Made by a program: the position numbers. From Nitrospirota bacterium (GTDB taxonomy: Bacteria; Nitrospirota; Nitrospiria; Nitrospirales; Nitrospiraceae): a stretch of 64,000 bases of DNA. Positions 33,001 through 45,000 of this stretch are shown here, piece by piece (within the stretch, counting starts at the first letter, position 1; every line of letters begins with the position of its first letter). The stretch spans positions 608,001-672,000 of the forward strand of contig CAVPBK010000006.1 of NCBI GenBank assembly GCA_963701855.1. Reading direction: 5' to 3'.

Positions 33001-36000
33001 ATGAAGGCCCCGGCTGCAGGGCGGCAAACTTCTGCCCTTCCTTCTGGCCCAGGGATTCGGTGATGAGAGCACTCGTCCTGACTTTCCACTTGGCCATTCG
33101 TTCGGCTCCGGCAACGGTATTGAGCGTCTCCATGGTCTCTTGGAAAATCTGGTCCAACTCCTTCAATTGCTTCTGAAGCATGTCAAGCGCCGTACCCGAT
33201 TGGTTCGTCATCGATAAACTCCTCTTGCATTGGTCTAGCTGGTCTATCTGGTTCGGTCCAAACTAGGAAACCGGACAGACGAGATAGACCAAACAGACCT
33301 CTCACCGTCTCTTAGCTAGCTTGGCGGCCAGCGTGATCGCCTCAACCAGACTGCCAGGATCTGCAATGCCCTTCCCCACAATATCAAACGCGGTCCCGTG
33401 ATCGACCGAGGTGCGAATGATCGGCAGACCCACCGTCAGATTTACGCAGGTGCCGAACGCGACAAGCTTTAAGGGAATGAGCCCCTGGTCGTGGTACAGA
33501 GCCACCACACCGTCGTAGTCGCCCCTCGCCGCCTTGCCAAACAGCGTATCAGCCGGCAAGGGATCGCTGGCACGAATACCCTGGGCCTGCGCCGCACGAG
33601 CCGCCGGGAAAATCACTCGCGCCTCTTCGTCCCCAAACAGTCCATGTTCTCCTGCATGAGGGTTCAACGCGGCGACACCGACTCTCGGTTTCTTAATTCC
33701 AAAGAGATCCCTCAACGCCAGATGGGCTAGTCTAATGGCTTTTTCAATCTTGGCCTGGGTGAGGAGTGACGGCAAATCTTTGATCGCGACGTGGGTTGTC
33801 ACAAACATGATTCGGAGCGGCCCGCCGATAATCATCATGCCGGATTCTTGTGTCTTGGTCAGATCTGCCAGCAGTTCCGTATGGCCGGGGAAATGACAGC
33901 CGGCCATATTGATCGCTTCTTTGTTGATCGGCGCAGTGACAATGCCGTCGATACAGCCAAGCTGCGCAAGCTCCACGGCTTTCTTGATAAACAGCACGGA
34001 CGCCGCTCCAGTTTCAGGTGCCGCGACTCCTCGTGGGAATCGCCCAAGGGAGTGATCGAGCGGGTCCAGCACAGCGAGGCGATTCGGTTGTGGAGGCGCT
34101 GTTTCATGACCCTCCATGCGAATTACGTTCATCTTAAGTTTCAAGCTCTTGACCGTCTGCTGCATGACCGGAAACGAGCCGATGACAATTGGACGACACA
34201 GGCGCCGCAACGCTTTTCCTGCCAAAGCCTTCGCAATCACCTCCGGGCCGATCCCCGCAGGATCTCCCATGGTGATTCCAAGAAGCGGTTTGGCTTTCAT
34301 CCTCGTCATGTTCTTCTCAGCACTCAGCACCCATCACTTCCTTAGGCCCAATACAAATACACCACATACCCTATATAAAGGATGGCGCTCCCGCTCAGCA
34401 ACCAAGGCCGCCAGAGAGCACCCCACGCAGCCTGCGCCAACAAGAAGGTAGCCGCGGCTATAGCGAGCACCATAGTCATCAATGCCGTCGGCGCCAACGT
34501 CCAGTCCGTGCCCAGGAGCCCGATCGAGACTGGGATTGTACCCTGAAAGACGATCGCGCCGGTGACATTCCCTATCGCCAGCCGATCTTTCTTTCGGTAG
34601 AGCCAGAGAAAACTGTTCGACATCTCAGGCAACTCGGTCGCGAGGGGCGCGATGAGGAGGGCCAGGATTAATGGAGAAATCGACAAAGCGCTCGAAATCG
34701 TTTCTGCAGCGAGCACGAAGAGGTGCGCTCCGAGCGCGAGACCAGCCAAGCCAAGGATTGCTTGAAGACCGATGAGCCCAAACGACGGGGTTGCCGCCTT
34801 TCTGGCAAAGAGCAGCGGCTCAAGCCCGCCCTCGCTCCCCTCCTCATCAGTTTCACTGAACTTCAGTTTGACGTAATAGAGGTAGAGGCCTATCAACCCG
34901 ATTGCGGCGACGATATGCACCGATCGAGACGGGACATACGCACAGGCCAGCGCGAGGCTGTACGCCGCCACAAAGAAAAAAAGATCGCCTCTTACAGCGC
35001 GATAGTTTACTCGGAAAGCCGCGATTCGCTTCCCCAATCCGGCATAGACCATCAACAATATGGCCAAGACGGGAATCACCAGGGTGGTCAACATGAAGGG
35101 GGCACCGAGGATCGCGCCCAACCCCACCTCCACTTCGGCACGGCTGGCTCCGAAGAAAATGGCAATCACGGGAATCGATGTTTCGGGAAGTGTGGTGCCG
35201 ATGGCGGCCAACACGCCGCCGACCGCGCCTTCTGACAGATTGAATCGCTTGCCCAACCACTCGATGGCGTTTGTAAATAACGTGCAGGCGCCCAGCGTCA
35301 CCACGACAGAAACGAGGAAGAGGAGGGTATAGAGTAGGACCGTCATCCCCGGCTCGTCGGCCTAGTGACCCGCTGTTTGGCATAGGCAAGAGCCGCATCT
35401 TCGAGCACCTCTTTTACGGGACGGCCTGTCCGTTCGGCTATCCGCTTGCAATCGAGATATTCCGGAGCCGCTTTAGTTGTCGCATCGTTCACAACGGCGA
35501 CCTTCATCCGAACAACGCCCCCGCGCACCTTTACCGAGACAAACTGCCGAGGAAGGATCTGTCGCATGACCTCACGAATCCGGACTCCTAACGTTGTCGT
35601 TTCCTGAAATAATACGTCAAGAATCCGATCCCGCTGCGCCGGAGCAGCAAGACAGGACAGAACAATGCCGGGCCGTCCACGTTTCATGATGACCGGCGCC
35701 AGTGTCACATCGAGCGCCCCGCGCGCGAATAGCTGTTCGATCACATACTCATATGTTTGCGGGTTCACATCGTCGAGATTCGTTTCAAGCTGCAGCACGG
35801 TATCCTGTTCACGCACGCCTCGGGATGACGGCCGCGAGAGAAACACACGCAAGGCATTCGGCCAGCCGTCGGGGTCGGCATCGCCCGCTCCATAGCCAAT
35901 GGCTGTCGGTGTCATCACCGGCATGGGACCGAACTCCGATGTCAGCGTGCGCAACAGCGCCATGCCGGTCGGCGTGGTGAGTTCACGGGAAGGGCCGGCA

Positions 36001-42000: not shown

Positions 42001-45000
42001 CACCCCGTCTGACGCAGGCTGCCATAATTCCGGACTTCACGACTCCTGACCGGACCGCTGCCTCGATGCTGCCGATGGCCCTGATCCGATTAATGGTTCG
42101 CAGATGGTGTTCATGCCCATGCGGCACGACGCGACCTGCCGCATGTCCATAGCCGAGGGACGTGCCGTAGAGATCGACCTCCATATCATGAGCGGGCAGC
42201 GCATTCCCGCAGAACAAGACATGGATGAATTCTTCATCAATCAGCCATGTCAGCGCCTCACGCCCTCCAGCGTGCACAATCGCCGGACCTCCCGCCAGCA
42301 GCACCTTGCTGCCAACTTTCCCCTCCCGAAATCCTGTTCGCAGCTGCTCAAGGCGCTTGGCAATGTCGCTAATGACGCGCCCATGGGGACGCTCGGACGA
42401 AACCTGCGATTCCATAAAGCTGAACACATCGCGATCACGTGGCCGCTGGAGCGGGATCACCCGCACGCCCTCACGGCCGGTCACGATCTGATCACCACGC
42501 TTCACCTCTCCCATCGGAACAGTCTTCGCAATCAGACGAACCGGGTCCACAAGAATCCCCAGATCCATCTCGATCCCCTCCACCTCCACCCACTGATCGC
42601 GAACTCGCACCTGGGTGGGTAAATGGGTGGTCGCGTAAAACTCGTCGGGAAAGATGCCGTTCGCCGGGGCCGCACTCAGCCGACAATCCCGTTCACTCTC
42701 AACCGACGCGCCGTGGGGTTGAATGGTATGGAGAATCTCGCTGAGCAGTTTCGCGGACGAGGCCCGCACGACGATTCTGGCGCGCGACGGTTCCTCGCGG
42801 GTCTTGCCGATCTGCATATCTTGAAGATCGAAGGTTCCACCCATCATCAAAATCGTGTCCAGAACCTTCGCCAGGATCAACGAGTCGATGATATGGCCTT
42901 GAAGCAGGACAGTTTCTTGATCATGCATCATAAGTCAGACTCCCTCTCTTACATGGAGAGGCTCCGCACAGATTCTACCACCCAGTTTCAACTGTTGCAG
43001 ATCAGATCCTGACTGTGCACCGAAGATTAGCAGGGCGCCGAATCACGTCCGCAAGATGCAGCCATCCCTGCGGGCGACTCAAAATGCTCCGCTAGCAAGG
43101 CCGCAGGCGAGTGAAAACCGGAGGCGTACCCTCTGGGGTACGTTGAGGATTTTCACGAGCAGAGAACGAAGCTAGCGGGCATTTTCAGCCGCCCGCGGTT
43201 TTCATGAGTTCGCGCAGAACGCTGGTCGCATAGGCGCCAGGCGGAAGTGAAAAGGAAAGGGTGAGCACCGACCCCTCCTGAGCCCATTCCAGATCGGCAA
43301 GAGGGATTCGGAACGAGCGCCGTTCGCCGCGAAACCCGCAGGCCTTCGCGGCTTCGGTAAGGCTTTCCGGGGTCGCGCCGCTCTCAGCCACCACGGCCCG
43401 TTCGATCTCTCCCGGTTCTCCGCCGGCCCACGAGGCGCGCGACCCAAACAGGATGCCGGTTGGACTGATCTCGAACCGGTCGGCCCGTGGCTGTTCCTTC
43501 ACAGCATCCTCGACCAGAAAACAGGCGCCGTTCTCCATTTTCATAGCCCAGTCTCCAATCAACACACGATCGAGTCGATCCAGTCGTCTGGCTAACATGT
43601 CATTAAAGAGATACGACTGATAGGCATTGAGGTACCACATGCGCTTGGACCGGTTCAGCCTGTTTCGGCGAGCAGGGTCCACCAGTAGTTCGGCTCCGAT
43701 TTGGTAATTCTGTCCGCTTCGCCCTTGCCGTTGCGGGCCGAAATAGTTCGGCACACCTCGTCGCACCAATATGTCCGTGACCAGGGGCACCGTCTCGCAG
43801 GCGTGCGTGGCGACATCCCGAATCACCAACCGAAAGCGATTGCCTGCATGATGCCCTGGACGCAAGCGATTGCGATGCCGGCCCAGTACTTCCACAGACA
43901 AGAGTTGCTCGTCCAGTTTCAATCGATCCAGCCGTTCAGGCGTAACACCGAGGAGCGAAATCATTTGCGTGGTCACGGCCCTGGCGTCTTTGAGGCCCGC
44001 TACCCCAATCGCTTGCGCTTTCACGCCTAAGACCGAGGACAATCGCAGAATGAGATCCGGAGTCGAGAGCAGGCGCTTTCTGATTTTGATGTAGAGATGC
44101 TCACCCTCTCCACAGGGGAGATACAGCGGATGCTCCTCAACCTGGAAATCTTCCGGGAGCGTCCGCATCTGTCCGCCAATGCCCGGCAACGCCGCCGTCA
44201 AAAAAGGCATGGTCATGGCGCAATAGCCCTCTTCTTCATTCGCACGTGATTGCCCTCACCGCTCAGTCGATCTCGATGGGGAGTGAGACGACTCGCATGG
44301 TATACTTTTCCTATGTTATTCCGCCCAGTGATGGTCCAATGGCCTAAGGTCCGCCTGTTCGCGGCAGGCGTGTTCCTCACCGTTCTGATATGTACTCTGT
44401 CCCCAGGGAGCTCGTTTGGTAGAGACAATGCGATCTTTCAGCAGTTCACCCAACACATCGGCAGGCAGATCCACAAAGACAAACAAGCCTTTGCGCATGC
44501 GAACGCCTGCGTCTCTTGGTTTTATCAGCTGAACAAGACACCTCCTCCGACCGTGCAGGGAATCGGGTGGAAGCCCACGTCTTCATCCCAGCTCGAAATG
44601 GATTGTCTTCGCAACTACCCAAGCGGAATGGACGATGCGCGAAACGATCTTGCCAAGACACAGGCGTTGCTTTCAGTCAGTCTGACTTTCTATGAATTTG
44701 CCCTTGTCGCAGACCAGAATGACGATGCCATCTATAGTCCCATTGAACTTCAAGACTTGCTCCGCTCCCTCACTCTCTCGTACCATGACGCGGAGCCAAA
44801 CCCGAAGCAGGTCACAGCACTCACAGAGCGGTTCGACAGTTGGTACCGCACCCGCAACATGGACGCCTTGATGCAAGGCATGAGCGATCTGTATGAACGA
44901 GGCTATCGCGTAACGCCCTCCGATCGTGTTGAACTGGATCGGGTGATGGGATGACACGACACGCGAGATCCTGGCCTGATCGAGCCCGTTCCTTCATCGG

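What a model noticed while it worked through the whole genome (the two positions that open the first line are those of the whole stretch)
35343..42931. Split ArgZ-type arginine dihydrolase with nickel-pincer ornithine cyclodeaminase: arginine as ammonia source
Two overlapping genes encode the two halves of the cyanobacterial bifunctional enzyme ArgZ/AgrE as separate proteins: a 266-aa arginine dihydrolase (46% identical to ArgZ residues 6-267, catalytic Cys kept) and a 414-aa nickel-pincer-nucleotide-dependent ornithine cyclodeaminase, with the cofactor genes larB and larC 3-6 kb away and larE on C1. I read this as a urea-free route arginine -> ornithine + 2 NH3 + CO2 -> proline + NH3 which, with PutA and glutamate dehydrogenase, frees all four nitrogens as ammonia inside the cell, so that a complete ammonia oxidiser lacking urease could nitrify and grow on arginine much as it does on guanidine. 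Arginine has not been considered a substrate of nitr [...]
Evidence so far: g01992 (C6:648890-649690, -): best Swiss-Prot hits ArgZ Synechocystis and AgrE Nostoc, 46.2% over 264 aa, E 2e-75, covering only their N-terminal dihydrolase part (6-267 of 705); C-terminus ...GGSAKCLTLALD. g01993 (649687-650931, -; 4-nt overlap with g01992): NCBIfam equivalog TIGR00300 'ornithine cyclodeaminase, nickel-pincer nucleotide-dependent' (450 bits, cut 410.8), 47.5% id to Methanothermobacter OCD; Pfam ArgZ-like_C_1st/2nd. larC g01985, larB g01987, larE g00031; PutA g03883; GDH g02087; amino-acid permeases g02129, g02807, g03813. No urease structural genes found in the tables. relatives.tsv: ArgZ-like_C domains in 377-378 of 511 Nitrospirales, 60-61 of 84 in the genus, vs 9,000-12, [...]
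(Added by a program. Inside this text positions count along the whole contig: contig position 608,001 is position 1 of the stretch shown here. "Call 12" and the like, gene names such as g00115 and contig names such as C1 are that model's own, and its searches are not shown. The text may have been shortened before it was handed on; [...] marks where a part breaks off. The agent that wrote the report below was given it as the finding of a first reader that could run no searches.)

Follow-up and report, generated by a model that had tools for sequence, protein, structure and literature searches.

The report
Unfused arginine-to-proline operon in Nitrospira
A comammox-type Nitrospira carries two overlapping genes that most likely turn arginine into proline and release three ammonia, but nearly all its relatives have the same pair, including those that cannot oxidise ammonia, so it looks like general nitrogen salvage and not a special fuel route.

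Summary
On the minus strand, a 414-aa ornithine cyclodeaminase (OCD; TIGR00300, 450 bits, cut-off 410.8) overlaps by 4 nt (ATGA) a 266-aa homologue of the ArgZ arginine-dihydrolase domain (DH; E 1e-75 to Sll1336). larB and larC lie 3-6 kb away and larE is on C1. The genome has amoA and no ureC.

"Split ArgZ" is misleading. The gene order is OCD then DH, the reverse of the fusion. Stand-alone DH is the common form (133 of the 150 best cluster representatives are 320 aa or shorter). OCD sits directly upstream of DH in 32 of 32 Nitrospirota loci and in 21 of 45 testable loci from other phyla. On a quick tree the fused forms are one separate clade.

The pair is not tied to comammox or to lack of urease. 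In the genus it occurs in 43 of 44 amoA-positive and 28 of 41 amoA-negative genomes. In the order it occurs in 301 of 352 genomes.

PutA, GDH, proB and proC are present. No cyanophycin synthetase was found, and no transporter or regulator lies in the operon.

Best reading: a conserved arginine to ornithine to proline module that yields ammonia. Arginine-driven nitrification is possible but unsupported.

Side finding: larBCE persist in relatives that lack both OCD and LarA.

The parts
41687..42931 (-). Ornithine cyclodeaminase, nickel-pincer-nucleotide-dependent type (414 aa); first gene of the operon
   Evidence: TIGR00300 450 bits against cut-off 410.8; Pfam Saccharop_dh_N, ArgZ-like_C_1st, ArgZ-like_C_2nd. 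PDB 3c2q 8.9e-89 and Alr4995 1.3e-88. 41% identity to residues 290-698 of a fused representative.
40890..41690 (-). Arginine dihydrolase-like guanidino-group hydrolase (266 aa); second gene of the operon
   Evidence: PDB Sll1336 1.3e-75. NF052232 279 bits, below cut-off 450. N72, E119, D169 and C263 are invariant and H167 nearly so in 43 homologues. 44% identity to a fused representative.
41687..41690 (-). ATGA stop/start overlap between OCD and DH (translational coupling)
   Evidence: Sequence read directly.
42972..42980 (-). Extended -10-like promoter element TGGTAGAAT, about 41-49 nt upstream of the OCD start
   Evidence: The motif TGNTANMMT is found upstream of OCD in 20 of 29 Nitrospirota regions, against a shuffled mean of 0.86 and a maximum of 5 in 500 shuffles. 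The consensus scan with a -35 requirement found no promoter.
37445..38293 (-). larB (nickel-pincer cofactor biosynthesis); overlaps the end of gpsA
   Evidence: NF033503 288.8 bits against 175. The gpsA-larB overlap is conserved in Nitrospiraceae loci.
35343..36599 (-). larC (nickel insertion, both LarC1 and LarC2 parts)
   Evidence: PF01969 442 bits; TIGR00299 192 bits against 90; NF052512 142 bits against 50.
38230..39249 (-). gpsA, context gene upstream of larB
   Evidence: NF000942 415.5 bits against 257.
43094..43180 (.). Copy of a dispersed REP-like repeat between truD and the OCD promoter
   Evidence: blastn found more than 60 partial copies in the genome. It forms an inverted pair with 40773-40802.
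40712..40809 (.). Second copy of the REP-like repeat, downstream of DH, in inverted orientation

Best explanation
The two overlapping genes form a self-standing operon, OCD then DH, that converts arginine to proline inside the cell.

Step 1: DH hydrolyses the guanidino group of L-arginine to ornithine + 2 NH3 + CO2.
Step 2: OCD cyclises ornithine to proline + NH3, using a nickel-pincer (NPN/NPAD) cofactor made by LarB, LarC and LarE.
Step 3: PutA and glutamate dehydrogenase can then release the fourth nitrogen.

The module is an old, near-core trait of Nitrospirales and serves general arginine catabolism and nitrogen salvage. Nitrite oxidisers and complete ammonia oxidisers both have it, so it is not an adaptation of comammox or of urease-less strains.

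Shown here: gene structure, family membership of OCD, conserved catalytic residues of DH, conserved gene pairing, co-occurrence, and presence of the cofactor and downstream genes.
Inferred: both activities, the cofactor actually used, the source of the arginine (imported or internal), and the physiological role.
For: - OCD is above the curated equivalog cut-off.
- DH matches the ArgZ and AgrE dihydrolase domains at E 1e-75, and the Asn, Glu, His, Asp and Cys positions are conserved.
- The two genes overlap by ATGA.
- OCD lies directly upstream of DH in 32 of 32 Nitrospirota/Nitrospinota loci (29 whole, 3 cut by a contig end) and in 21 of 45 testable loci from other phyla (20 whole, 1 cut; 3 further loci were untestable).
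- In other lineages DH is fused to ornithine users. Of the 17 longest of the 150 best representatives, 8 are DH-OCD fusions and 2 are DH fused to a class-III aminotransferase.
- In the genus the two genes are present together in 70 genomes and absent together in 13 of 85. The other 2 hold contig-end fragments.
- Four complete relatives show a clean empty site between the zinc-ribbon gene and truD.
- larB, larC and larE are present and LarA is absent.
- PutA and GDH are present.
- proB and proC are present, so OCD is not needed as the only proline route.
Against: - DH scores below NCBIfam's cut-off for arginine dihydrolase (279 against 450) and not far above the Mtb-type dimethylargininase model (234).
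- No activity was measured.
- In 23 of 45 testable loci from other phyla, DH has no OCD within 6 kb.
- larB, larC and larE persist in relatives without OCD. Their nearness to the operon therefore does not show a dedicated link.
- No transporter, regulator or riboswitch is in or beside the operon.
- The only candidate arginine carrier is a BcaP/cationic-amino-acid-type permease elsewhere, below cut-off (622 against 690).
Confidence: 0.65

Rival explanations
1. The pair exists mainly to feed ammonia oxidation. Imported arginine is stripped of its nitrogens without urea, and the ammonia is oxidised for energy. A urease-less complete ammonia oxidiser could then grow on arginine as comammox does on guanidine or urea. 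Nitrite-oxidising Nitrospira might pass the ammonia on to ammonia oxidisers.
For: - The whole route is encoded: DH, OCD, PutA and GDH.
- amoA is present and ureC absent.
- All 8 amoA-positive genomes of the genus that lack ureC keep the pair.
- A cationic-amino-acid-type APC permease exists.
- In the passages read, the guanidine paper names only ammonia, urea and cyanate as earlier proven substrates. It tested arginine only on the purified guanidinase.
Against: - The pair is as common in genomes that cannot oxidise ammonia (28 of 41 amoA-negative) and in those with urease (35 of 36 amoA-positive with ureC).
- It is near-core in the order.
- It also occurs in Planctomycetota, Chloroflexota and other phyla.
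- No transporter is linked to the operon.
- The promoter looks like a plain extended -10 with no conserved nitrogen-control site.
Confidence: 0.15
2. The pair is homeostatic or biosynthetic and not catabolic. It would close an ornithine-ammonia-type cycle that buffers nitrogen in the arginine pool, or supply proline (for example as an osmolyte) from ornithine, as the archaeal OCDs do.
For: - The closest solved OCD outside cyanobacteria is an archaeal stand-alone protein (3c2q).
- OCD and DH are chromosomal core genes under a housekeeping-type promoter.
- The role of ArgZ in a cyanobacterial ornithine-ammonia cycle is recalled, not read here.
Against: - proB and proC give the usual proline route.
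- No cyanophycin synthetase is present (best 116 bits against 850), so the cyanobacterial storage link is missing.
- A dihydrolase is not needed to make ornithine in an arginine prototroph.
Confidence: 0.15
3. DH is not an arginine dihydrolase. It would be a dimethylargininase, a deiminase or a hydrolase of some other guanidino compound, and its pairing with OCD would have another reason.
For: - DH is below the curated cut-off of every NCBIfam model. The Mtb-type dimethylargininase model scores 234 bits.
- Public annotations call it 'N-dimethylarginine dimethylaminohydrolase' or 'arginine deiminase-related'.
- Pfam sees only DDAH_eukar at 24 bits.
Against: - The best-scoring models and solved structures are the dihydrolase ones.
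- Citrulline or dimethylamine would give OCD no substrate.
- Repeated operon pairing and fusion with two different ornithine-using enzymes point to ornithine as the product.
Confidence: 0.1

Closest known systems
ArgZ (Sll1336, Synechocystis) / AgrE (Alr4995, Anabaena): bifunctional arginine dihydrolase-ornithine cyclodeaminase
   Same: Both catalytic modules are present, with 44% and 41% identity to a fused representative. They are the best solved-structure matches by sequence. The same three C-terminal Pfam domains are present.
   Different: Here there are two polypeptides, in the opposite order (OCD first). Both score far below the bifunctional model's cut-off (280 and 356 bits against 1025). 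On the quick tree the fused forms are a separate clade (SH-aLRT 97). No cyanophycin synthetase is in the genome.
Stand-alone nickel-pincer (NPAD)-dependent ornithine cyclodeaminases, TIGR00300 (archaeal type; PDB 3c2q)
   Same: Full-length match above the curated cut-off. 3c2q matches at 8.9e-89. larB, larC and larE are in the genome.
   Different: Here the enzyme is coupled by an overlapping operon to a dihydrolase. The cofactor work (Desguin 2025) was seen only as a citation in PMC13524815; the paper itself is not held.
Mycobacterial-type 'dimethylargininase' NF045659
   Same: Same superfamily and length; 234 bits over the full length.
   Different: Below its cut-off of 300 and below the dihydrolase model. 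That the Mtb gene sits beside ornithine aminotransferase and an arginine permease is recalled, not checked.
Coxiella arginine-to-proline pair (CBU_0279 and CBU_1727), as described in a 2026 preprint
   Same: A stand-alone homologue of the ArgZ N-terminal domain plus an ornithine cyclodeaminase, read as two ammonia-producing steps (passages read).
   Different: By their locus tags the two genes are far apart there, whereas here they overlap. I did not check which OCD family the Coxiella enzyme belongs to.
Urea, cyanate and guanidine use by nitrifiers (urease, cyanase, guanidinase)
   Same: A cytoplasmic enzyme route that frees ammonia from an organic nitrogen compound (passages of PMC11410670).
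   Different: Those routes have linked transporters or riboswitches and growth data. This operon has neither. This genome does carry a Guanidine-I riboswitch, a permease and a ureohydrolase on C11.

Membership tests
NPN-dependent ornithine cyclodeaminase (TIGR00300) | Full-length match above the curated equivalog cut-off | tested here: met
   450.0 bits against 410.8, residues 7-410 on profile positions 5-404 of 407.
NPN-dependent ornithine cyclodeaminase (TIGR00300) | Three-part architecture: Saccharop_dh_N + ArgZ-like_C_1st + ArgZ-like_C_2nd | tested here: met
   109.6, 104.2 and 306.8 bits.
NPN-dependent ornithine cyclodeaminase (TIGR00300) | Cofactor biosynthesis genes larB, larC and larE in the genome | tested here: met
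   larB and larC in the window; larE on C1. These genes also persist in relatives without OCD.
NPN-dependent ornithine cyclodeaminase (TIGR00300) | Ornithine to proline + NH3 activity with a bound nickel-pincer cofactor | not testable with these tools
   Needs an enzyme assay.
Arginine dihydrolase domain (NF052232, ArgZ N-terminal type) | Score above the curated cut-off | tested here: not met
   279.1 bits against 450. It is still the best-scoring model, level with the bifunctional one.
Arginine dihydrolase domain (NF052232, ArgZ N-terminal type) | Conserved active-site residues of the guanidino-modifying fold: Cys nucleophile, His, Asp/Glu, and the Asn of FTANAG | tested here: met
   N72, E119, D169 and C263 are invariant and H167 is at least 90% conserved in 43 sequences. 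They align with Sll1336. One PDB variant differs at that Asn. The roles of the residues are recalled, because the structure papers are not held.
Arginine dihydrolase domain (NF052232, ArgZ N-terminal type) | Coupling to an ornithine-consuming enzyme | tested here: met
   Operon with OCD in 53 of 77 testable loci. Fusions to OCD or to a class-III aminotransferase occur in other lineages.
Arginine dihydrolase domain (NF052232, ArgZ N-terminal type) | Arginine to ornithine + 2 NH3 + CO2 without free citrulline or urea | not testable with these tools
   Needs an enzyme assay.
Bifunctional ArgZ/AgrE (NF052231) | Both activities on one polypeptide, dihydrolase N-terminal | tested here: not met
   Two genes, with OCD first. 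279.9 and 355.9 bits against cut-off 1025.
Mtb-type dimethylargininase (NF045659) | Score above the curated cut-off | tested here: not met
   234.1 bits against 300.
Complete ammonia oxidiser (comammox Nitrospira) | amoA in a Nitrospira genome | tested here: met
   PF02461 309 bits on C5. Nitrospira names come from public records of near-identical proteins and loci. hao and nxr were not searched.

The most novel reading that the evidence does not exclude
Nitrospira in general could use free or peptide-derived arginine as a urea-independent, nickel-dependent source of ammonia. In complete ammonia oxidisers, including urease-less ones like this genome, that ammonia would be oxidised for energy. 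In nitrite oxidisers it would be leaked to partner ammonia oxidisers, as with urea and cyanate. Arginine would then be a new nitrification substrate, and nickel supply would control it.
Probability: 0.15. Interest if true: 0.75.

Novelty: new member of a known kind. Interest (0 to 1): 0.45.

Why it matters
If the route works as predicted, almost every Nitrospira can release three of arginine's four nitrogens as ammonia without urea and without ATP, using a nickel-pincer enzyme. That adds a nickel requirement and an amino-acid entry point to the nitrogen metabolism of the most widespread nitrite and complete ammonia oxidisers. It can be tested directly in existing cultures, because a record titled N. 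moscoviensis carries the same operon.

The work also corrects the family picture. The cyanobacterial fusion is the exception, and the unfused OCD-DH operon is the common form.

Last, it exposes a gap. The full larBCE set is kept in relatives that have neither known client, which points to an unidentified nickel-pincer enzyme.

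Tried and rejected
- Sigma-54 promoter upstream of OCD. A GG-N10-GC match exists in the window, but it recurs in only 4 of 29 Nitrospirota regions. 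Rejected in favour of the conserved extended -10.
- Cyanophycin link. No cphA was found.
- The 281-aa ORF between larB and larC as a cofactor accessory. It has no family. Its conserved part looks like a small exported protein. Dropped.
- REP-mediated excision of the pair. The empty sites in four relatives hold no REP remnant.
- Proteome of N. inopinata. 12 of the 15 supplementary files of PMC11410670 were searched for product names, with 0 hits. The proteome sheet lists only protein ids.
- Rfam. No family was found in the window.
- The apparent palindrome on C3 is an inverted duplication of at least 12 kb, not a whole-contig fold-back.
- Not run: structure prediction, fold search and complex prediction. 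At 41-46% identity to solved structures they would have passed by likeness and changed nothing.
- The careful tree search did not finish in 300 s. The quick tree was used.

Full report
WHAT IS THERE. The minus strand carries a 414-aa ORF (41687-42931) followed by a 266-aa ORF (40890-41690). The stop of the first and the ATG of the second overlap as ATGA. Both starts have purine-rich Shine-Dalgarno-like stretches. Upstream lies truD (43185-44216, minus strand). Downstream a zinc-ribbon gene converges (40276-40683, plus strand). The unit is therefore a two-gene operon.

THE TWO PROTEINS. The first protein passes NCBIfam's equivalog for the nickel-pincer-nucleotide-dependent ornithine cyclodeaminase (TIGR00300, 450.0 bits, cut-off 410.8). 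It has the three Pfam domains found in the C-terminal half of ArgZ. Its best solved relatives by sequence are an archaeal stand-alone protein (3c2q, 8.9e-89) and Alr4995/Sll1336.

The second protein matches the dihydrolase domains of Sll1336 (1.3e-75) and Alr4995 (8.9e-74) over its whole length. It is 44% identical to residues 4-270 of a 710-aa fused representative, and the OCD is 41% identical to residues 290-698 of the same protein. In an alignment of 43 homologues, N72, E119, D169 and C263 are invariant and H167 is nearly so. The catalytic roles of these residues are recalled, because the two structure papers are not held.

Against a simple filing, DH is below every curated NCBIfam cut-off: arginine dihydrolase 279 against 450, bifunctional ArgZ 280 against 1025, and Mtb-type dimethylargininase 234 against 300. 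Public records name it variously, as a dimethylarginine hydrolase, as arginine deiminase-related, and rarely as arginine dihydrolase.

COFACTOR AND ORGANISM. larC (35343-36599) and larB (37445-38293) lie 3-6 kb away. larE is on C1 (308.8 bits against 150). No LarA domain was found in a genome 97.14% complete. The genome has amoA and no ureC (best 26 bits against 680). Near-identical proteins and loci carry Nitrospira names in public records.

NOT A SPLIT OF ArgZ. The order here is OCD then DH, whereas the fusion has DH first. Four results bear on this.
- Of the 150 best 50%-identity cluster representatives of DH, 133 are 320 aa or shorter (3714 hits at E <= 0.001, 625 at E <= 1e-30).
- I scanned the 17 longer ones with Pfam. 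Eight are DH-OCD fusions (some cut), 2 are DH fused to a class-III aminotransferase, 6 carry the small Saccharop_dh_N domain in front of DH, and 1 is a double DH.
- Of 80 loci fetched from one-genome-per-species contigs, OCD lies directly upstream on the same strand in 32 of 32 Nitrospirota/Nitrospinota loci (29 whole, 3 cut by a contig end). Among the 48 loci of other phyla, 3 are too short upstream to test. Of the 45 testable loci (Planctomycetota, Chloroflexota, Bacteroidota, Thermodesulfovibrionia, delta- and gammaproteobacteria), 21 have OCD directly upstream (20 whole, 1 cut), 23 have none within 6 kb, and 1 has only the small N-terminal domain.
- A quick IQ-TREE of 95 DH domains was built. 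I left out 19 of the 32 Nitrospirota loci as near-copies, and I added 16 fused and 17 stand-alone representatives. It puts all 8 DH-OCD fusions in one clade (SH-aLRT 97) and the 14 Nitrospirota operon rows in another (99). The operon label needs at least 5 changes on the tree. The tree is unrooted and the careful search did not finish, so the order of events is not settled. A fission of the cyanobacterial fusion is nevertheless not the likely origin.

The neighbours of DH in the 23 loci without OCD are unrelated, with a few peptidases among them (47 neighbouring ORFs scanned).

ONE UNIT. In the 85 genomes of the genus, DH is found in 71 (43 of 47 high-quality) and OCD in 71 (43 of 47; 60 above cut-off). 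Both are present in 70 and both are absent in 13. The remaining 2 hold a fragment of one gene at a contig end or in a 52%-complete bin. Three further DH matches are 21-27-aa contig-end stubs next to OCD and were counted as present.

In four relatives of 90-99% completeness without the pair, the neighbourhood is intact: pdxA, the Na/Ca exchanger, larC, larB, gpsA, the zinc-ribbon gene and truD. About 160 bp lie where the pair would be. The absence is therefore real.

WHO HAS IT. amoA is in 44 of 85 genus genomes. ureC is in 55 of 85 at E <= 1e-30. DH is in 43 of 44 amoA-positive genomes and in 28 of 41 amoA-negative ones. Eight amoA-positive genomes lack ureC, among them this one and its closest relative, and all 8 have DH. 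So do 35 of the 36 amoA-positive genomes with ureC.

In the order, 301 of 352 genomes at least 90% complete have DH (280 of 328 high-quality; 44 of 51 genera). One of the positives is a genome flagged unpublished. Records titled Nitrospira moscoviensis and N. defluvii carry the same operon and the same truD ... gpsA-larB-larC synteny. The pair is thus a general Nitrospirales trait, with no bias towards ammonia oxidisers or urease-less strains.

REST OF THE ROUTE AND ALTERNATIVES.
- PutA (1005 aa) and a GDH-family enzyme are present, so all four nitrogens can in principle be freed.
- proB and proC are present, so OCD is not the only way to make proline.
- No cyanophycin synthetase was found (best 116 bits against 850).
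- Four APC permeases exist. One is close to BcaP and to cationic amino-acid carriers (622 against 690; 412 against 682). Another follows a Guanidine-I riboswitch and sits next to a 382-aa ureohydrolase.
- The two SBP_bac_3 hits are MltF-like, not amino-acid-binding proteins.
- None of these genes is near the operon.

REGULATION. Rfam finds nothing in the window. A TGNTANMMT extended -10-like motif (TGGTAGAAT at 42972-42980) is found upstream of OCD in 20 of 29 Nitrospirota regions, against a shuffled mean of 0.86. In some deep lineages it lies only 10 nt before the ATG. A sigma-54-like match is not conserved.

A LOOSE END. larC is in 79 of 85 genus genomes, larE in 77 and LarA in 4. Ten of the 13 genomes without OCD and DH still have larC. 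The four high-quality ones among them (G001, G057, G063, G064) have intact larB, larC and larE and no LarA. Either the pair was lost very recently there, or Nitrospira has a further nickel-pincer enzyme that is not yet known. For the main finding this means that the nearness of larB and larC is not evidence of a dedicated link. It shows only that the cofactor is available.

LITERATURE.
- Nickel-pincer (NPAD) dependence of OCD: seen only as a citation and description in PMC13524815 (passages). The original paper (Desguin 2025) is not held.
- PMC11659421 (passages) notes that the bifunctional enzymes cluster with a larger group of uncharacterised proteins.
- A 2026 preprint (passages) describes a stand-alone ArgZ-N homologue plus an OCD in Coxiella.
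- The guanidine paper PMC11410670 (passages) names only ammonia, urea and cyanate as earlier proven substrates. It tested arginine only on the purified guanidinase.
- A survey of organic-nitrogen genes in nitrifiers, PMC10753782 (passages), did not include this route.
- Full-text searches gave nothing relevant: Nitrospira with 'arginine dihydrolase' (5 papers, none on this; listing only), with 'ornithine cyclodeaminase' (1 unrelated), with 'dimethylarginine dimethylaminohydrolase' (0), and with larB/larC/larE (none relevant).

Within that library the operon has not been described in Nitrospira. Subscription papers and bioRxiv supplements were not visible.

VERDICT. The biochemical reading (arginine to ornithine to proline, three ammonia released, nickel-pincer cofactor) is well supported by homology, conserved pairing, fusions and co-occurrence, but it is unassayed. 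The ecological reading (arginine as a substrate for nitrification in a urease-less comammox) is possible and testable. The distribution gives it no specific support. I file this as a new member of a known kind, of moderate interest.

Noticed in passing
Genus-mates G001, G057, G063, G064 (loci L110-L113); window 35343-38293 for the homologous genes: larB, larC and larE are all intact in genomes that lack both known nickel-pincer clients (OCD and LarA). LarA is in only 4 of 85 genus genomes. This suggests an unidentified nickel-pincer-dependent enzyme in Nitrospira, or a very recent loss of the pair.
   Followed up: partly
window 38230-38293: gpsA overlaps larB by about 55-64 nt, and this coupling is kept in all Nitrospiraceae loci examined. 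GpsA has an ordinary GxGxxG motif, so it is probably a plain NAD(P)H enzyme.
   Followed up: no
window 43094-43180 and 40712-40809 (arms 43078-43107 and 40773-40802): Copies of a dispersed REP-like repeat of about 55-87 nt flank the operon in inverted orientation. More than 60 partial copies are spread over the genome. The empty sites in relatives hold none.
   Followed up: partly
G000 C11:25912-29342 (L105:1177-1281 riboswitch; L105:1414-2850 permease; L004:1453-2601 ureohydrolase): A Guanidine-I riboswitch (89.7 bits against 63) precedes an APC permease, next to a convergent 382-aa agmatinase/guanidinase-like ureohydrolase, in a genome without ureC. Guanidine would then yield urea with no known way on. 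Urea carboxylase was not searched.
   Followed up: partly
L035, L036, L037 upstream of OCD; L020: In deep Nitrospirota the -10-like motif ends only a few nt before the OCD start codon, and about 8 nt before it in the N. moscoviensis record. The transcripts may be leaderless or nearly so.
   Followed up: no
Proteins P0177, P0164; P0127, P0128, P0130, P0133, P0150, P0174; locus L085: Other architectures of the DH module exist. One is a fusion to a class-III aminotransferase (a likely ornithine aminotransferase). Another has one or two copies of the small Saccharop_dh_N domain in front of DH, without the rest of OCD.
   Followed up: partly
G000 C3:1-12000 and C3:56590-68395: An inverted duplication of at least 12 kb (8.6 kb at 99.8% identity, 3.1 kb at 97.5%) begins at the start of contig C3. 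It is either a real large inverted repeat or an assembly artefact.
   Followed up: partly
window 36531-37376 (+): An ORF with no family lies between larB and larC and is conserved in position in Nitrospiraceae. Its conserved C-terminal part follows a hydrophobic, signal-like stretch, so it is probably a small exported protein with a later start.
   Followed up: no
L038 (record titled Nitrospinia bacterium): Its DH and OCD nest inside the Nitrospirales clade on the tree, next to two Nitrospirales genomes. This means either gene transfer or a mislabelled bin.
   Followed up: no
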